33,672 nt of DNA from the UHGV virus genome UHGV-2170543, one strand, 5' to 3'. Shown piece after piece: positions 6,919 through 26,578 of the stretch. Positions within the stretch are counted from its first letter, which is position 1. Each line of letters opens with the position of its first letter. Below the pieces are notes generated by a model, which had not been told where the DNA came from, made no database searches, and worked only from the letters and a program-made list of their open reading frames with translations. Origin of the DNA: a virus. The position numbers were made by a program, and so were the translations under genes.

Positions 6919-7371
6919 GAATCCTCCCGGCCGGGATAATATTGTGAGTAAAATAAGGAGCGGGCTGAAGTCCGGAAGTTACAGGACAATGGCAGAAGAG
7001 AGACGACAGCCCGCAATTCGAAAAAGACCGCGCAGTTGCGCAGCCTTATGAATTCTGGTTAAAATCCATTCGATTATAAAAATGTATATCTCATGCTGTT
7101 GCCCGAACCCACTCGGGCTTTTTTTTGCCCACAAGAAAGCCCCTCCGGAGAGGGGCTAAAGCCGCGTATCTGTATCATCATGCACATGATGCCGGGTGCC
7201 TCCCGGTGAGTTCAGTATCAGCACCTGAACCCGCACAGAAAGGATAAGGGTCGGTGACAAAACACCAGTTGCTGATTGCCCCTCCGCACAGGGGGATTCA
7301 CCATGCCAGTTTCTTTTAACAAACTCCCCGCAAAACAGACAACTGTCAACCGTCTGAATTGTGAGACATTT

Positions 7372-7395
7372 AAAAAAAAGCCCGCAAAAGCGAGC
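7372..7395 (-). terminator. hairpin + U-tract terminator downstream of tRNA cluster (copy A)
   Basis: Minus-sense GCTCGC-TTTT-GCGGGC followed by TTTTTTTT. Confidence 0.45.
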
Positions 7396-7410
7396 CGGGA
7401 AAAATAAGTC

Positions 7411-7487
7411 TGGCGCGTTGTACTGGATTCGAACCAGTGACCGATTGCTTAGAAGGCAATTGCTCTGTCCGGCTGAGCTAATAACGC
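7411..7487 (-). tRNA. tRNA-Arg (anticodon UCU), argN/argO-like phage tRNA
   Basis: Cloverleaf read by hand: acceptor GCGTTAT/ACAACGC (one mismatch), anticodon loop CTTCTAA, T-loop TTCGAAT, 3' CCA. Confidence 0.85.
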
Positions 7488-7500
7488 AGGGTACAGATAA

Positions 7501-7577
7501 TGGACCGCCATCGAGGACTCGAACCCCGCGCAACCAGCTTCGAAGGCTGGCGCTCTATCCTGATGAGCTAATGGCGG
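7501..7577 (-). tRNA. tRNA-Arg (anticodon UCG), phage tRNA
   Basis: Acceptor CCGCCAT/ATGGCGG, D-stem GCTC/GAGC, anticodon loop CTTCGAA, T-loop TTCGAGT with A58, 3' CCA. Confidence 0.85.
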
Positions 7578-7584
7578 TATGTGA

Positions 7585-7660
7585 TGGTGGCCCTTGCTGG
7601 ATTTGAACCAGCGACCTGGCGATTATGAATCGCTCGCTCTCACCACTGAGCTAAAGGGCC
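7585..7660 (-). tRNA. tRNA-Ile2 (anticodon CAU, lysidine type), ileZ-like phage tRNA
   Basis: Near-identical to E. coli ileX-type sequence as recalled; acceptor GGCCCTT/AAGGGCC, anticodon loop TTCATAA, T-loop TTCAAAT, CCA. Confidence 0.9.
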
Positions 7661-7688
7661 GAGCCAAAAAATAATAATCAGATGAAAA

Positions 7689-8402
7689 TCAATAATCAAG
7701 CCCTTGCCTGGATACATATCTGTCTGGCGGGAAGCCATAATAGCGGTGAAATACAGAAATAAAGTAGGACCTGCTTGAATAACCGCATTTTTCTGCTATA
7801 GCCTGTCCATATCCATGCCGGGAACATAACATATTTACAGCAACACGCATCCGCTCTTCCAGCAACAAGCGACTGAACATGCCCCCTTCATTTTTCAGTT
7901 TTGTCTTTAACAAACTCTCACTCATATGCAACTGTAGAGCAATCGCACCAAGCGTCCAGCTTGCTGATATATCTGTCTGAATTATCGCCCTGACTTTGGC
8001 ACTTATGCTGGATAAACATCCACTTAAAAACAATGACATCCGTTCATCTGTTTCAAACAGAGACAGGCAGGCCATCATAAGAAACATATCCGTGGCCTCT
8101 CCGGAAAATCCCTGGCTGGTAATTAAAGCCGCAGCCAACGCAGGATTGTTGGGTTCCAGCAACAGGTAAAGCGGAATGTCAGTCAGACGAGTCCTCGTCA
8201 GCTTATGCTGACTTTCCAGATATTGACTTACGACGGATTCGCTTATATCGACAATTTTAACTTTGCCATAATGCATAAGGAAAAGCTCCCTGATGCATTT
8301 GGTGGCCAGAACAACTGAGCCTGGCTTAAGTGACAACGTATCCTTTTCAAGAAAAATATTAATTGGGGAGCAAACCATGATAACTGAACAGACAACAGCC
8401 AT
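7689..8402 (-). CDS. AraC-family transcriptional regulator (prophage-encoded)
   Basis: C-terminal AraC-type double HTH (ISASWTLGAIALQLHMSESLLKTKLK...RHGYGQAIAEKCGYSSRSYFISVFHRYYGFPP); start codon uncertain (8402 or 8378). Confidence 0.7.
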   Translation of the reverse strand: MAVVCSVIMVCSPINIFLEKDTLSLKPGSVVLATKCIRELFLMHYGKVKIVDISESVVSQYLESQHKLTRTRLTDIPLYLLLEPNNPALAAALITSQGFSGEATDMFLMMACLSLFETDERMSLFLSGCLSSISAKVRAIIQTDISASWTLGAIALQLHMSESLLKTKLKNEGGMFSRLLLEERMRVAVNMLCSRHGYGQAIAEKCGYSSRSYFISVFHRYYGFPPDRYVSRQGLDY

Positions 8403-22596: not shown

Positions 22597-23216
22597 GCAA
22601 CATTAACTATCAGGTACTGCGTGAAAAGGCAGAGAAAGCAACTAAAGGAAGCTACATCGTAGGGCATACATCTGTTAACCAACACGGCAATTTAACAGGA
22701 GTTTTTGTTTGTCAAAAATGGAAAGGAGAACCCGGTGGCGTGATTGCGGAACGTCATGTTAACTGCCTGATTGAAACAGATGCTCAGGCTTATGCAAACG
22801 CTGAGTTCATAGCAGAGGCTAACCCGGCTACCGTGCTGGCACTGCTGGATGAACAGGAAAGAAACCAGCAATACATCAAACGCCGCGACCAGGAGAACGA
22901 GGATATTGCGCTAACGGTAGGGAAGCTGCGCGTTGAGCTTGAGGAGACAAAATCAAAACTCAACGAGCAGCGCGAGTATTATGAGGGAGTTATCTCTGAT
23001 GGGTGCAAGCGTATTGCTGAACTGGAAGCGCGGGAAGTTCAATTACCGACTCGCTACGACCTTCGATATGGACACCCGATAAATGCAGATGAGCGACATG
23101 TCATGATACCTAAAGAAAATGGCAGTTGGCTTTACCTGATTGACCTGGAACACGCATTACGCGTCGCTGGCATTCGCATCAAAGGAGAGGAGCATGGAAA
23201 TAAAACCAGAGGATGA
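22593..23216 (+). CDS. Ea22-like family protein
   Basis: 207 aa; coiled-coil central region; resembles ead/Ea22-like prophage proteins as recalled. Confidence 0.45.
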   Translation: MSNINYQVLREKAEKATKGSYIVGHTSVNQHGNLTGVFVCQKWKGEPGGVIAERHVNCLIETDAQAYANAEFIAEANPATVLALLDEQERNQQYIKRRDQENEDIALTVGKLRVELEETKSKLNEQREYYEGVISDGCKRIAELEAREVQLPTRYDLRYGHPINADERHVMIPKENGSWLYLIDLEHALRVAGIRIKGEEHGNKTRG

Positions 23217-23550
23217 GTTAAGCAATATCGTTTTATTTCCGGTAAAAGAGGATGACCCTCGTAATCAGGTTAATTTTCTTTATGAGCCATCGGAAAGACC
23301 ATATTGTCATCACGCCTCTGTCCGGGTTGACGAAAAAGAGCGTCAGGTCCGCTGTAAAATCTGCGGTGCAGTTGTGGAACCATTTGACTGGATGCTCTCT
23401 GTGGCGAAAAGAGAAACCAGACTGGCAGATGATGTAAGGCTCTTGCGTCAGGAGGAGCGGGAAAGGCGAAAAAATATAGAAAAGCTAATTCAGATTGAGC
23501 GTAACGCGAAAGCGCGGATACGCAGGGCGACAAAATCCAGAACTGAATAA
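23194..23550 (+). CDS. hypothetical protein with C/H zinc-ribbon-like motif
   Basis: MEIKPEDEL start with GGAGAGGAG RBS; PYCHH...CKICG motif; basic C-terminus. Confidence 0.4.
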   Translation: MEIKPEDELSNIVLFPVKEDDPRNQVNFLYEPSERPYCHHASVRVDEKERQVRCKICGAVVEPFDWMLSVAKRETRLADDVRLLRQEERERRKNIEKLIQIERNAKARIRRATKSRTE

Positions 23551-23643
23551 TTAAATTTAGCTCTGTTAAAAATTTAATCCTTAACCGGAGGGATTTCTGC
23601 ACCCTCAGAACATCAGGAGGCCGCCCGAAAGGGCGGTAGTTAA

Positions 23644-23826
23644 ATGCGAAAGTTTAAAATAATTATTGAAACGGGAATAGCCGGTGGAGATTTCGAGGAT
23701 GAATTCGAAGTGGATGATGATGCGACGCCTGATGAAATACATGACGAAGCAAAAGATATTTTCTTTAACTACTGCAATTACTCATATCACGAAATAAAAG
23801 ACGAAGAGGAAGAGCAAAATGGCTGA
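23644..23826 (+). CDS. small acidic hypothetical protein
   Basis: 60 aa ORF. Confidence 0.3.
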   Translation: MRKFKIIIETGIAGGDFEDEFEVDDDATPDEIHDEAKDIFFNYCNYSYHEIKDEEEEQNG

Positions 23827-23995
23827 TTTTGGTTCAACTAAATACAACGTCAGTTTTGAAGCATGGCATGAACTGTTAATGGACTATGCAGAGTTACGTG
23901 GTGGCAGTGCTGCTGATGCTGAAGCATGGCGTGATGATTATGAAGCAGGAAAAACTCCGGTCGAAGCATATTGTGATGAGTGGGGCGATGAATGA
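23819..23995 (+). CDS. small hypothetical protein
   Basis: 58 aa MADFGSTKYNVSFEAWHELLMDY...; overlaps neighbours by start/stop. Confidence 0.3.
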   Translation: MADFGSTKYNVSFEAWHELLMDYAELRGGSAADAEAWRDDYEAGKTPVEAYCDEWGDE

Positions 23996-24306
23996 GCGAG
24001 ATTAATTATCAGGAAGGGCATGAAACGGCAGGGCAGGCAAAACCAGTTGCATGGCGATATCGCTACGTGAAAAAAGGCGTTACGGACTTTCAGGAGAATC
24101 TGTGGGTTGGTGACTGGAAATATGTACCGACAAAAGAGGATTGCAACGACAGGCCGAACTATGAAATTCAGGCCTTATTCGCTGCCCCGCCAGTTCCGGT
24201 GACATCAGAAGAACTGGTTAAAGCTGTGCACTTTTATGAACAACTAAAACGCGAAAATCCACCAGCATCCGGAAACCTGATTACAGATTCCCAGATAAGG
24301 CAATGA
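23992..24306 (+). CDS. hypothetical protein
   Basis: 104 aa ORF, ATGA overlap with upstream. Confidence 0.35.
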   Translation: MSEINYQEGHETAGQAKPVAWRYRYVKKGVTDFQENLWVGDWKYVPTKEDCNDRPNYEIQALFAAPPVPVTSEELVKAVHFYEQLKRENPPASGNLITDSQIRQ

Positions 24307-24476
24307 GCTACCTGGCGCAGAACGGGCTGATAAGTATGGGGAATATTTTGCGATGAATATTTAGACTAAAGAGTTTGTAACGCTATGTAAGTGATTTTTT
24401 CTGGTTTAGATATTTATATGTCCGGCCAAATTGAGGTGTGTTTAAATGTTATTGTACATTGATTGTAGGGGGAATA

Positions 24477-24656
24477 ATGAAAAACGCATTGCAGTTTTTG
24501 TTTGTTGCGTTCTGGTTGTTCGCATCATGTATGCCCATCATCTTCACAGCAAGGTATATGGAAAAAGTTGATGTTTTGATATTAATGTTTGGACATATAA
24601 ATGCCCTTTTTTTAGGGGTGTTCATGGCGGTCATGTGCATTGAATACTGGCGGTAA
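24477..24656 (+). CDS. small 2-TM membrane protein
   Basis: MKNALQFLFVAFWLFASCMPIIF...; AT-rich; GGGGGA RBS. Confidence 0.3.
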   Translation: MKNALQFLFVAFWLFASCMPIIFTARYMEKVDVLILMFGHINALFLGVFMAVMCIEYWR

Positions 24657-24914
24657 ATACAGCGAACGCCATTGGTTTAGTTGGATATTTACTGTGCCGG
24701 ACAAAAACGGTTTGCGGGGAAATCTTAGTTAAGTAGAATGACTGCGGGTGCTTGAGGCTATCTGTCTCAGGCATGAACACCAAAAGGCAGATAGAGAAAA
24801 GCCCCAGTTAACATTACGCGTCCTGCAAGACGCTTAACATTAATCTGAGGCCATATCTATGCGACACATAGAGATTAGCCTCTTACGGACCGAAAGGTCA
24901 AGGAGAAGCAGGCT

Positions 24915-25070
24915 ATGAAGCAGCAAAAGGCGATGTTAATCGCCCTGATCGTCATCTGTTTAACCGTCATAGTGACGGCACTGGTAACGAGGAAAGACCT
25001 CTGCGAGGTACGAATCCGAACCGGCCAGACGGAGGTCGCTGTCTTCACAGCTTACGAACCTGAGGAGTAA
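24915..25070 (+). CDS. hok: Hok/Gef-family type I toxin
   Basis: MKQQKAMLIALIVICLTVIVTALVTRKDLCEVRIRTGQTEVAVFTAYEPEE closely matches the Hok pattern (LTRKSLCEIRYRDG.REVAAF.AYE); short upstream ORF ends in ATGA overlap; palindrome CTATGCGACACATAG upstream. Confidence 0.75.
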   Translation: MKQQKAMLIALIVICLTVIVTALVTRKDLCEVRIRTGQTEVAVFTAYEPEE

Positions 25071-25140
25071 GAGACCAGGCGAGGGGGAAATCCCTCGCCA
25101 CCTCTGATGAGTCAGGCATCCTCAACGCACCCGCACTTAA

Positions 25141-25167
25141 CCCGCTTCGGCGGGTTTTGTTTTTTCC
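25141..25167 (+). terminator. Rho-independent terminator after hok
   Basis: CCCGC-TTCG-GCGGG followed by TTTTGTTTTTT. Confidence 0.55.
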
Positions 25168-25237
25168 TGGCATTCTGGTTTACAATTCGCACGTCAGCCT
25201 GAACACCTGACACCTGCTGCGCCAGCAGAGAAAACAG

Positions 25238-25510
25238 ATGGCGCACAAAACCAAATTTCACAATTCTGATACCGACCTTGCCATCCGGCATGGGCGGCGT
25301 TCACACGCATTTAAAACCGACTGGTACCAACACCCACCATGTACTGAAGAACAGGCCGAATGGCTAATTCATAACTACCGCAGACGCGGATACGAGATTA
25401 AGAAAGCCCTCAGCCTCGATTATCGTCACTGGATAATCTATGTCAGGCTCCCTTATTCCGAACGCTCACCGCGCCCATCCCGCACATTCCAGCAACGCAT
25501 CTGGAGGTAA
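25238..25510 (+). CDS. hypothetical protein
   Basis: 90 aa ORF preceding DUF968 gene. Confidence 0.35.
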   Translation: MAHKTKFHNSDTDLAIRHGRRSHAFKTDWYQHPPCTEEQAEWLIHNYRRRGYEIKKALSLDYRHWIIYVRLPYSERSPRPSRTFQQRIWR

Positions 25511-25511
25511 C

Positions 25512-26566
25512 GTGCGGATATTACTTCGACCTGTTCTGGTACCGGAACTCGGGCTGGTGGTCCTTAGGCCGGGCCGTGAATCCATGCAAGTATTTCATAA
25601 CCCTCGAGTGCTGGTGGAGCCTGAACCGAAAAGCATGCGCGGTCTGCCGTCCGGAGTCGTCCCTGCCGTTCGCCAGCCGCTGGCGGAGGATAAATCATTT
25701 CTGCCATTTTTCAGCGATGAGCGGGTGATTCGTGCTGCTGGCGGCGCTGGGGCACTGTCTGACTGGCTGTTGCGTCATGCCAAATCCTGCCAGTGGCCTC
25801 ATGGTGACTATCATCACAGTGAAATCGTCATACATCGTTACGGTACCGGCGCGATGGTGTTGTGCTGGCACTGCGACAACCAGTTGCGTGACCAGACATC
25901 CGAATCACTCGGGCAACTTGCTCATCAAAACCTGTCAGCATGGATGATTGACGTCATACGCCATGCAATGAATGGCACGCAGGAGCGGGAATTGTCGCTG
26001 GCTGAATTATCCTGGTGGGCGGTCCGCAATCAGGTGGCGGACGCGCTACCGGAAGTGGTATTACGTCGTTCGCTGGGGTTGCGTGCGGAAAAAATCCGCT
26101 CAATGTACCGTGAAAGCGACATCGTACCGGGAGNNNNNNNNNNNNNNNNNNNNNNNNNNNNNNNNNNNNNNNNNNNNNNNNNNNNNNNNNNNNNNNNNNN
26201 NNNNNNNNNNNNNNNNNNCCACAGGAAGAGACGGTGGTCAGCATTGCCGTTGATCCTGAGTCTCCGGAATCTTTCATGAAACGACCTAAACGTCGCCGCT
26301 GGGTTAACGAGAAATACAAACGCTGGGTGAAGACACAGCCGTGTGCGTGTTGTGGTAAGCCAGCCGACGATCCCCATCACCTGATTGGTCATGGTCAGGG
26401 CGGAATGGGGACAAAATCTCACGATATTTTCACGCTACCGCTGTGTCGGGAGCATCACAACGAGCTTCATGCGGATCCTCTGGCGTTCGAAGAAAAGCAT
26501 GGTTCTCAGGTTGATTTAATTTTTCGTTTTCTTGATCACGCCTTTGCAACTGGCGTGCTTGGGTAA
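25512..26566 (+). CDS. DUF968-family nin-region protein, copy B (spans assembly gap)
   Basis: GTG start after GGAGG RBS; N- and C-terminal parts paralogous to 10095-11090; interrupted by N run 26134-26218. Confidence 0.55.
26134..26218. other. assembly gap (N run, 85 nt) inside DUF968 gene
   Basis: Run of n characters. Confidence 1.
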
Positions 26567-26578
26567 AAGAGGTGACTG

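What the first reader, a model, noticed from the sequence alone, without database searches (positions are those of the whole stretch)
7411..7660. The two phage tRNA clusters differ at stem positions; copy B tRNA-Arg(UCG) looks degenerate
Copy A tRNA-Arg(UCG) pairs correctly throughout and has A58 in the T-loop. Copy B (29845-29921) has an acceptor-stem A-A mismatch, a T-stem A-C mismatch and G at position 58. Conversely, copy A tRNA-Arg(UCU) has one acceptor mismatch that copy B lacks, and the Ile2 tRNAs differ at position 32. This suggests relaxed selection or pseudogenisation of individual tRNAs in one module.
Basis: seen in the sequence. Interest (0 to 1): 0.35.

Follow-up and report, generated by a model that had tools for sequence, protein, structure and literature searches.

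The report
Decayed arginine tRNA in prophage cluster
The window holds two copies of the well-known three-tRNA cluster of lambda-like E. coli prophages (ileZ-argN-argO), and the middle tRNA of the second copy is a widespread damaged allele that probably no longer folds as a tRNA, which is ordinary prophage gene decay and not a new element.

Summary
ARAGORN and Rfam find six tRNAs in two inverted clusters: A at 7411-7660 on the minus strand and B at 29762-30011 on the plus strand. Copy B tRNA-Arg(UCG) has A6·A67, A52·C62 and G58. Copy A tRNA-Arg(UCU) has A6·C67. The CAU tRNAs differ at position 32.

Both clusters are the ileZ-argN-argO cluster annotated in Stx2 phage 933W, each with a promoter-like site and a terminator.

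Copy B argN scores 43.4 bits against 56.0 for copy A. Its cloverleaf is 7 kcal/mol worse than its best fold, and its T-stem pair probabilities are near zero.

The damage did not arise in this genome. The exact allele is in 246 complete E. coli records, and its lineage makes up 14-35% of IMG/VR clusters. Later changes in the lineage are mostly damaging (CCA to UCA, G10U, G50A). None of 261 deposited phage records with argN carries it.

Decay of this slot is general. The middle tRNA is intact in only 35 of 115 ileZ-anchored clusters, while argO is intact in 72 of 117.

The degenerate reading of copy B argN is supported, but decay is not confined to one module. Loss of function is inferred, not shown. 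This is a known system of low interest.

The parts
7585..7660 (-). Cluster A, slot 1: ileZ-type tRNA with anticodon CAU (Ile2-like), carrying the rare U32 allele
   Evidence: ARAGORN; Rfam 72.0 bits; U32 allele in 4 of 117 IMG/VR copies; PGAP labels this allele tRNA-Met
7501..7577 (-). Cluster A, slot 2: argN-type tRNA-Arg(UCG), intact cloverleaf, A58, encoded CCA
   Evidence: 56.0 bits; the MFE is the cloverleaf; commonest allele in the argN-anchored sample (34 of 119); exact in 146 E. coli records
7411..7487 (-). Cluster A, slot 3: argO-type tRNA-Arg(UCU) with an A6·C67 acceptor mismatch
   Evidence: 64.4 bits against 70.1 for the consensus allele; allele in 5 of 113 copies
7671..7699 (-). 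Promoter-like site TTGATT-17-TATTAT, ending 10 nt upstream of cluster A
   Evidence: consensus match only, function inferred
7379..7396 (-). Intrinsic-terminator-like hairpin plus T-run after cluster A
29724..29752 (+). pT-like promoter TTGCAG-17-TATTAT upstream of cluster B, with the same hexamers and spacing as the 'pT putative tRNA promoter' annotated in phage 933W
   Evidence: Sequence compared with the 933W annotation and sequence. The simple scan did not list it, because the -35 hexamer matches only 3 of 6
29762..29837 (+). Cluster B, slot 1: ileZ-type tRNA(CAU), consensus allele, identical to 933W ileZ
   Evidence: 72.5 bits; 104 of 117
29845..29921 (+). Cluster B, slot 2: degenerate argN allele with A6·A67, A52·C62, G58, C63 and A20a; predicted to misfold
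   Evidence: (43.4 bits); exact in 246 E. coli records; absent from 261 argN-bearing phage records
29935..30011 (+). Cluster B, slot 3: argO-type tRNA-Arg(UCU), consensus allele
   Evidence: 70.1 bits; 74 of 113
30026..30043 (+). Intrinsic-terminator-like hairpin plus T-run after cluster B
7271..7661 (.). Left arm of a 391-nt inverted repeat (96%) whose right arm is 29761-30151. Homology starts exactly at the 5' end of ileZ and runs about 140 nt past argO

Best explanation
Both clusters are copies of the ileZ-argN-argO tRNA operon of lambdoid (Stx-type) prophages. It is a small unit with its own promoter-like site and terminator, placed between the Q antiterminator region and the esterase and lysis genes. 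It supplies decoders for AUA, CGA/CGG and AGA/AGG.

Copy B argN belongs to an old, widely spread allele lineage that has lost canonical tRNA architecture. It has an A·A mismatch in the acceptor stem, an A·C mismatch next to the T-loop, and G in place of the near-universal A58. The transcript is predicted to fold into a shifted hairpin (U54-G58 with C63-A67) instead of a T-arm. It is therefore most likely a poor substrate for RNase P, T-loop modification, ArgRS, EF-Tu and the ribosome, which makes it effectively a pseudogene.

It persists because it rides between two tRNAs that are still useful. The host already reads CGA and CGG, so selection on this slot is weak. The structural defects, the misfolding prediction, the allele distribution and the further decay are shown. 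Loss of function and the selective reason are inferred.
For: Identity of the cluster:
- The 933W record annotates pT, ileZ (AUA), argN (CGN) and argO (AGA/AGG) plus a terminator in the same order and spacing.
- Copy B ileZ is identical to 933W ileZ and copy B argO differs at 1 nt.
- Copy A argN is 96.1% identical to 933W argN and copy B argN is 90.9%.

Defects of copy B argN:
- They are visible in the alignment.
- The Rfam score is 43.4 against 54-59 bits for all alleles with intact stems, and 33.8 for a B allele with an added G10U.
- The cloverleaf energy is -20.0 against an MFE of -27.0. T-stem pair probabilities are 0-0.01 and the alternative hairpin has 0.56-0.89. Copy A's MFE is the cloverleaf.

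Lineage decay, among 47 B-lineage clusters:
- ileZ is identical in 44.
- argN has picked up CCA to UCA, G10U, G50A and C31U.
- 11 also carry an argO with G53·A61 plus G6·G67.
- There are no compensatory double changes in any cloverleaf stem among 38 distinct alleles.

General relaxation of the slot, in 115 ileZ-anchored IMG/VR clusters:
- 35 have an intact argN, 37 are indel-disrupted, 16 are B-lineage, and 11 have another anticodon plus a mismatch.
- argO is intact in 72 of 117.

Codon-usage rationale: in 36 window ORFs, AUA, AGA and AGG occur at 10.6, 7.1 and 5.5 per 1000. That is 2-4 times typical E. coli values (K-12 figures from my own knowledge). CGA and CGG, at 4.8 and 7.7, are only about 1.3-1.4 times typical.

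Distribution: the B lineage is absent from 261 deposited phage records with argN and from the 9 stx-linked IMG/VR clusters, 7 of which have an intact argN.
Against: - The allele still exceeds the Rfam gathering score (43.4 against 29), and PGAP annotates it as tRNA-Arg with no pseudogene flag.
- The D-arm, the anticodon arm, A20 and the UCG anticodon are intact. CCA is encoded in the window's copy.
- A·C and A·A mismatches are tolerated in some real tRNAs, and modifications and tertiary contacts are not in the energy model.
- The allele is common (246 exact records, including the E. coli type strain), which could also mean it is tolerated because it still works.
- No expression or charging data were available.
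- The IMG/VR samples are redundant isolate genomes capped at 120 rows, so the frequencies are rough.
Confidence: 0.65

Rival explanations
1. Copy B argN is a working, perhaps weaker, tRNA-Arg(UCG). The mismatches are tolerated (A+·C wobble, A·A in the acceptor stem), and the cloverleaf is held by tertiary contacts and modifications.
For: It scores above the Rfam threshold and is annotated tRNA-Arg. The anticodon arm and D-arm are conserved and CCA is present. The promoter-like site and terminator are intact. The allele is frequent. G58 alleles with perfect stems exist and score 54.0 bits.
Against: Three defects are combined in the acceptor/T-arm minihelix. The cloverleaf is 5.4-7 kcal/mol less stable than the alternative folds, and T-stem probability is about 0. 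Within the lineage there is only further damage, including loss of the encoded CCA in 14-16 copies, and no restoring changes. The lineage is absent from all 261 deposited phage genomes with argN.
Confidence: 0.25
2. The B lineage has been re-purposed as a tRNA-like RNA. A58G, U63C and U67A together build a new 5-bp hairpin (UUCGG/CCGAA with loop GUCC) stacked on a 5-bp acceptor stem, while the anticodon arm is kept. It could serve as a decoy, a processing element or an sRNA precursor.
For: Three of the five changes are exactly those that create or strengthen the alternative hairpin, which dominates the predicted ensemble. Positions 58 and 63 show A-U in 12 alleles and G-C in 17. The covariation score of the alternative structure exceeds all 500 shuffles.
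Against: The haplotypes A58/U63, A58/C63 and G58/C63 fit a simple stepwise path without any pairing constraint. The tool warns that related sequences beat the shuffles without structure. 9 alleles break that pair and 24 break the 54-67 pair. U63C also improves the canonical stem. The B lineage then loses a D-stem pair and its CCA, which looks neutral. No function is known for such an element.
Confidence: 0.06
3. The differences are sequencing or assembly errors, or gene-conversion noise between two repeats in this assembly.
For: The clusters lie in a 391-nt, 96% inverted repeat. The window's overall arrangement is not found as one piece in any of 5426 complete genomes.
Against: Both 501-nt regions and both 77-nt alleles recur at 100% identity in many independent complete genomes and in IMG/VR contigs.
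Confidence: 0.01

Closest known systems
ileZ-argN-argO tRNA cluster of Stx2 phage 933W (GenBank AF125520) and other lambdoid/Stx phages
   Same: It has the same three tRNAs in the same order (CAU, UCG, UCU) with short spacers. The promoter hexamers match the annotated pT in copy B, and a terminator follows argO. It sits downstream of Q and upstream of the YjhS/SASA-type esterase and lysis genes. ileZ is identical, argO differs by 1 nt, and copy A argN differs by 3 nt.
   Different: No stx genes follow either cluster here; STnc100-type sRNA sequences and the esterase gene follow instead. Copy B argN differs from 933W argN at 7 of 77 positions and has lost stem pairing and A58. That lineage is not seen in any deposited phage record.
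tRNA pseudogenes and decayed tRNA genes in prophages (for example 'tRNA-pseudo-tRNA-Arg' next to stx2i, PMC13641118)
   Same: The same cluster is reported with one member annotated as a pseudo-tRNA in most strains. Here the middle slot is intact in only about 30% of clusters.
   Different: Copy B argN is decayed by point mutations and is still called a tRNA by ARAGORN, Rfam and PGAP. It is not an indel-disrupted remnant.
Phage-borne tRNAs that compensate for codon-usage differences (Bailly-Bechet et al. 2007, as cited in PMC7946995)
   Same: The prophage ORFs in the window are enriched in AUA, AGA and AGG, the codons read by ileZ and argO. The general rationale is quoted.
   Different: CGA and CGG are barely enriched, which fits the weak retention of argN. 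No experiment was run here.

Membership tests
ileZ-argN-argO cluster of lambdoid/Stx phages (933W type) | Three tRNA genes in the order CAU, UCG, UCU with spacers of about 7-13 nt | tested here: met
   (both clusters), compared with the 933W annotation
ileZ-argN-argO cluster of lambdoid/Stx phages (933W type) | High sequence identity to the 933W genes | tested here: met
   Copy B ileZ 76/76; copy B argO 76/77; copy A argN 96.1%; copy B argN 90.9%
ileZ-argN-argO cluster of lambdoid/Stx phages (933W type) | Location in the late-control region, downstream of antiterminator Q and upstream of the esterase, holin and lysozyme genes | tested here: met
   Annotation of near-identical regions in strain 23CRST038 and of 933W; ORF map
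ileZ-argN-argO cluster of lambdoid/Stx phages (933W type) | Own promoter (pT) and a terminator after argO | tested here: inconclusive
   Hexamers matching 933W pT are present in B. A different promoter-like site is present in A. Terminator-like hairpins are present in both. Activity was not tested.
Canonical elongator tRNA (Rfam RF00005) | Covariance-model score at or above the gathering threshold | tested here: met
   All six score 43.4-72.5 bits against 29
Canonical elongator tRNA (Rfam RF00005) | Fully paired 7-bp acceptor stem and 5-bp T stem | tested here: not met
   Copy B argN has A6·A67 and A52·C62. Copy A argO has A6·C67. The other four are fully paired.
Canonical elongator tRNA (Rfam RF00005) | Conserved T-loop with T54 and A58 | tested here: not met
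   Copy B argN has G58 (UUCGGGU). The other five have A58.
Canonical elongator tRNA (Rfam RF00005) | Cloverleaf is the favoured fold | tested here: not met
   Copy B argN: cloverleaf -20.0 against MFE -27.0 kcal/mol, T-stem probability about 0. Copy A argN: the MFE is the cloverleaf. The model ignores modifications and tertiary contacts.
Canonical elongator tRNA (Rfam RF00005) | Expressed, processed and aminoacylated | not testable with these tools
   No expression data available
tRNA-Ile2 (CAU anticodon, lysidine-modified) | CAU anticodon with C4-G69 and C5-G68 in the acceptor stem (TilS determinants, from my own knowledge of Ikeuchi et al. 2005) | tested here: inconclusive
   Both copies have CAU, C4-G69 and C5-G68 (sequences). 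933W annotates ileZ as reading AUA. PGAP calls the C32 allele tRNA-Ile and the U32 allele tRNA-Met. The modification was not tested.
tRNA pseudogene | Lineage accumulates further disabling changes without compensation | tested here: met
   B lineage: CCA to UCA, G10U, G50A. No double compensatory change in any cloverleaf stem.
tRNA pseudogene | No mature functional product | not testable with these tools
   Needs tRNA-seq, Northern blots or charging assays

The most novel reading that the evidence does not exclude
The B-lineage 'argN' is not a dying gene but a re-shaped tRNA-like RNA. Its linked changes (A58G, U63C, U67A) were selected to replace the T-arm with a stable 5-bp hairpin while keeping the Arg(UCG) anticodon arm. 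It might act as a decoy for anticodon nucleases or as a processing element within the ileZ-argO precursor in non-Stx prophages.
Probability: 0.05. Interest if true: 0.5.

Novelty: already known. Interest (0 to 1): 0.15.

Why it matters
It matters little for discovery, because this is the textbook tRNA cluster of Stx-type lambdoid prophages, and a decayed member is expected biology.

There are three practical points:
- Hundreds of E. coli genomes annotate this allele as a normal tRNA-Arg, although it probably does not fold as one. tRNA gene counts and codon-adaptation estimates for such strains may therefore be inflated.
- A single C32U change flips the automatic label of the CAU tRNA from Ile to Met.
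- The pattern (ileZ nearly invariant, argO mostly kept, argN intact in about 30% of clusters and mainly in Stx phages) suggests which of the three tRNAs actually earn their keep. That hypothesis about prophage tRNA function could be tested.

Tried and rejected
- Literature searches for ileZ, argN, argO and 'prophage-encoded tRNA' found nothing relevant in the open-access library. The Plunkett 1999 paper is not held. Context came from the 933W GenBank annotation and incidental mentions.
- The single scan of species-representative genomes with the 19-nt argN anticodon arm gave 23 hits, of which only Escherichia albertii is a true homologue. There is therefore no deep phylogeny for covariation analysis.
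- A megablast search of the B allele against the phage collection returned only one record, because the 28-nt word is interrupted in 933W-type alleles. It was repeated with blastn.
- The first IMG/VR sample was anchored on the argN anticodon arm. It excluded 933W-type and disrupted alleles, so a second, ileZ-anchored sample was taken.
- A per-column diversity comparison with the flanks was abandoned as a neutral yardstick. The flanks are mosaic (pi 0.23-0.32), and a few rearranged clusters inflated the counts.
- Sequencing error is rejected.
- Decay of one whole module is rejected, because module B holds the consensus ileZ and argO alleles.

Full report
**1. The observation**

ARAGORN finds six tRNA genes. 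Cluster A is on the minus strand: Arg(tct) 7411-7487, Arg(tcg) 7501-7577 and CAU 7585-7660. Cluster B is on the plus strand: CAU 29762-29837, Arg(tcg) 29845-29921 and Arg(tct) 29935-30011.

Rfam's tRNA model detects all six, against a gathering score of 29 bits:

| Cluster | CAU | UCG | UCU |
|---|---|---|---|
| A | 72.0 | 56.0 | 64.4 |
| B | 72.5 | 43.4 | 70.1 |

Aligning A (reverse complement) with B and reading the cloverleaf gives the following.
- Copy A Arg(UCG) is fully paired, with one G51·U63 wobble, and has T-loop UUCGAGU (A58).
- Copy B Arg(UCG) has A6·A67, A52·C62 and T-loop UUCGGGU (G58).
- Copy A Arg(UCU) has A6·C67 where copy B has G6-C67.
- The CAU tRNAs differ only at position 32 (U in A, C in B).

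**2. What the clusters are**

The two clusters lie in a 391-nt inverted repeat, 7271-7661 and 29761-30151, that is 96% complementary. Its homology begins exactly at the first base of the CAU tRNA.

Both regions are extremely common in E. coli. About 3200 of 5426 complete genomes have a match, nearly always in prophages.

Annotated near-identical regions place the clusters in lambdoid late-control regions. They sit downstream of an antiterminator Q gene and upstream of a SASA-family esterase, holin and lysozyme.

The GenBank record of Stx2 phage 933W annotates the same unit. It lists 'pT, putative tRNA promoter', ileZ (AUA), argN (CGN), argO (AGA/AGG) and a terminator, followed there by stx2AB.

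Comparison with the 933W genes:
- Copy B ileZ is identical to 933W ileZ.
- Copy B argO differs at one base.
- Copy A argN is 96.1% identical to 933W argN.
- Copy B argN is 90.9% identical to 933W argN.

Signals around the clusters:
- Copy B keeps the 933W pT hexamers and spacing, TTGCAG-17-TATTAT at 29724-29752.
- Copy A has a different upstream segment with TTGATT-17-TATTAT at 7699-7671.
- Both have a terminator-like hairpin plus T-run after argO.

No stx genes follow either cluster. STnc100-family sequences and the esterase gene do.

**3. Is copy B argN degenerate?**

Three independent computations say yes.

(a) Covariance-model scores. Representative loci for each allele gave the following Rfam scores:

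| argN allele | Rfam bits |
|---|---|
| Alleles with intact stems (including a G58 allele, 54.0) | 54.0-59.0 |
| A67-only allele | 54.1 |
| A3·C70 plus U61 allele | 44.9 |
| B allele | 43.4 |
| B allele plus G10U | 33.8 |

(b) Thermodynamics.
- Copy A's minimum free energy structure is the cloverleaf (-29.8 kcal/mol).
- Copy B's cloverleaf is worth only -20.0 kcal/mol, against an MFE of -27.0.
- Copy B's T-stem pair probabilities are 0-0.01.
- A shifted hairpin, U54-G58 with C63-A67, has probabilities of 0.56-0.89.

(c) Population pattern.
- In 119 IMG/VR clusters anchored on the argN anticodon arm, the B lineage makes up 42.
- Within the lineage, the additional changes are CCA to UCA (16 copies), G10U (3), G50A (1 in this sample, 3 in the pooled set) and C31U. 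The first three are damaging, C31U keeps a wobble pair, and none restores a pair.
- Among 47 B-lineage clusters in the pooled set, ileZ is identical in 44. Eleven also carry an argO with G53·A61 plus G6·G67, which scores 53.4 bits against 70.1.
- Across 38 distinct in-register alleles, no cloverleaf pair shows a compensatory double change. Variation is one-sided or pair-breaking.

**4. The decay is inherited and general, not local**

Distribution of the two argN alleles:
- The exact B allele occurs in 246 complete E. coli records, including the type strain ATCC 11775.
- Variants one base away occur in O157:H7 and O111:H8.
- The exact A allele occurs in 146 records.

A second IMG/VR sample was anchored on ileZ, so it is unbiased with respect to argN. 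In its 115 clusters, the middle slot falls into these classes:

| State of the middle slot | Clusters |
|---|---|
| Intact Arg(UCG) tRNA | 35 |
| Indel-disrupted | 37 |
| B lineage | 16 |
| Anticodon UUU with C33 and an A·C mismatch | 11 |
| Slot not recognisable | 5 |
| Other point-degenerate alleles | 11 |

The indel-disrupted class is mostly an 80-nt family with a replaced anticodon arm that ARAGORN does not call. It also includes argN/argO chimeras. By contrast, argO is intact in 72 of 117 clusters, and ileZ is nearly invariant.

Other points on distribution:
- No record among the 261 deposited phage genomes with an argN homologue is closer than 92.2% to the B allele. Those records are mostly Stx phages.
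- In IMG/VR, 7 of 9 stx-linked clusters have an intact argN and none is B-lineage. Among clusters without stx, 51 of 141 are intact. The numbers are small.
- Module B as a whole is not decaying, because it carries the consensus ileZ and argO.
- Module A carries the rare ileZ U32 allele (4 of 117) and the rare argO A6·C67 allele (5 of 113).

**5. Why this slot**

In the 36 longest non-overlapping ORFs of the window, codon frequencies per 1000 are:

| Codon | Per 1000 codons |
|---|---|
| AUA | 10.6 |
| AGA | 7.1 |
| AGG | 5.5 |
| CGA | 4.8 |
| CGG | 7.7 |

The comparison values are for E. coli K-12 and come from my own knowledge: about 4-5, 2-3, 1-2, 3.5 and 5.5 per 1000 respectively. On that basis the codons served by ileZ and argO are enriched 2-4 fold, and those served by argN only about 1.3-1.4 fold. 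The host also reads CGA (ICG tRNA) and CGG (CCG tRNA) itself, which is established knowledge. Weak selection on argN is therefore plausible, but this step is inference.

**6. Rival explanations**

Residual function cannot be excluded. The allele passes the Rfam threshold and PGAP annotates it as tRNA-Arg without a pseudogene flag. Its D-arm, anticodon arm, A20 and CCA are intact.

The alternative hairpin is intriguing, because A58G, U63C and U67A are exactly the changes that build it. Positions 58 and 63 also covary, A-U in 12 alleles and G-C in 17. However, the three observed haplotypes fit a simple stepwise path. Nine alleles break that pair. U63C also improves the canonical stem. The tool itself warns that relatedness alone can beat its shuffles. 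I give this reading about 5%.

Artefact is excluded by the exact recurrence in many genomes.

**7. Comparison with what is known, and verdict**

This is the known ileZ-argN-argO cluster. Pseudo-tRNA variants of it are already noted in the literature (PMC13641118). The family appears confined to Escherichia. Apart from Escherichia albertii, the scan of species-representative genomes gave only chance matches.

The 'degenerate copy B argN' reading is supported computationally. The 'one module' framing is not supported, and loss of function remains untested. Novelty: already known. Interest: low.

Noticed in passing
window 1-33672; boundary near 23189: The window holds two lambdoid late-control modules pointing away from each other, about 22 kb apart. 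No complete E. coli genome of 5426 holds 6500-30500 as one place. Homology to the mlrA-site prophage of strain 23CRST038 stops at 23189, inside an ea22-like region, and the rest matches a prophage 1 Mb away in that strain. IMG/VR contigs L067 and L025 are collinear with 22948-30200, so the right-hand arrangement exists elsewhere.
   Followed up: partly
window 7585-7660 and 29762-29837: A single C32-to-U32 difference in the CAU tRNA flips the PGAP label from tRNA-Ile to tRNA-Met in otherwise identical genes. Both copies keep C4-G69 and C5-G68.
   Followed up: partly
IMG/VR loci, e.g. L150, L174-L176, L190 (slot after ileZ): In some clusters the middle tRNA has an argN-like body but anticodon UUU with C33 and an A51·C63 mismatch, and ARAGORN calls it tRNA-Lys. 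These clusters continue with Thr(UGU) and Gly(UCC) tRNAs instead of argO.
   Followed up: no
IMG/VR loci from the ileZ-anchored scan (about 25 of 115 clusters): An 80-nt family keeps the argN acceptor, D-arm and T-arm but has the anticodon arm replaced by unrelated sequence (AGACGACACGATAACAGGGTTGTTGGTG). ARAGORN does not call it. A few clusters carry argN/argO chimeras fused at the anticodon loop.
   Followed up: partly
window 14867-16584 (minus strand): Tandem duplication, with a period of about 870 nt, of a Rha-family regulator gene. Each unit has its own C4 antisense RNA and isrK hit: 15479-15566 with 15591-15667, and 16345-16432 with 16454-16530.
   Followed up: no
window 7127-7335 (-), 30087-30277 (+), 30555-30764 (+); 7071-7123 (+): Three STnc100-family sRNA hits lie directly downstream of the tRNA clusters, two of them in module B. 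An AsxR hit sits exactly at its gathering score of 63 bits, antisense beside the module A copy. A 2026 preprint (10.64898/2026.05.13.724894) interprets tRNA hits near such sRNAs as integration-site remnants. Here they are the phage-borne ileZ-argN-argO genes.
   Followed up: partly
window 24746-24917 (+): A sok antitoxin RNA hit (106.7 bits) implies a hok/sok-type toxin-antitoxin locus in the nin-side region of module B.
   Followed up: no
window 27696-29712 (+): Between Q of module B and the tRNAs lie a Ser/Thr kinase gene, a PP2C phosphatase gene and a 5'-truncated DNA methyltransferase remnant. This follows the annotation of the 99.98% identical region in strain 23CRST038.
   Followed up: no
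IMG/VR loci with stx against those without: An intact argN is seen in 7 of 9 stx-linked clusters but in only 51 of 141 clusters without stx. The B lineage is never next to stx and never appears in deposited phage genomes. The sample is small and redundant.
   Followed up: partly
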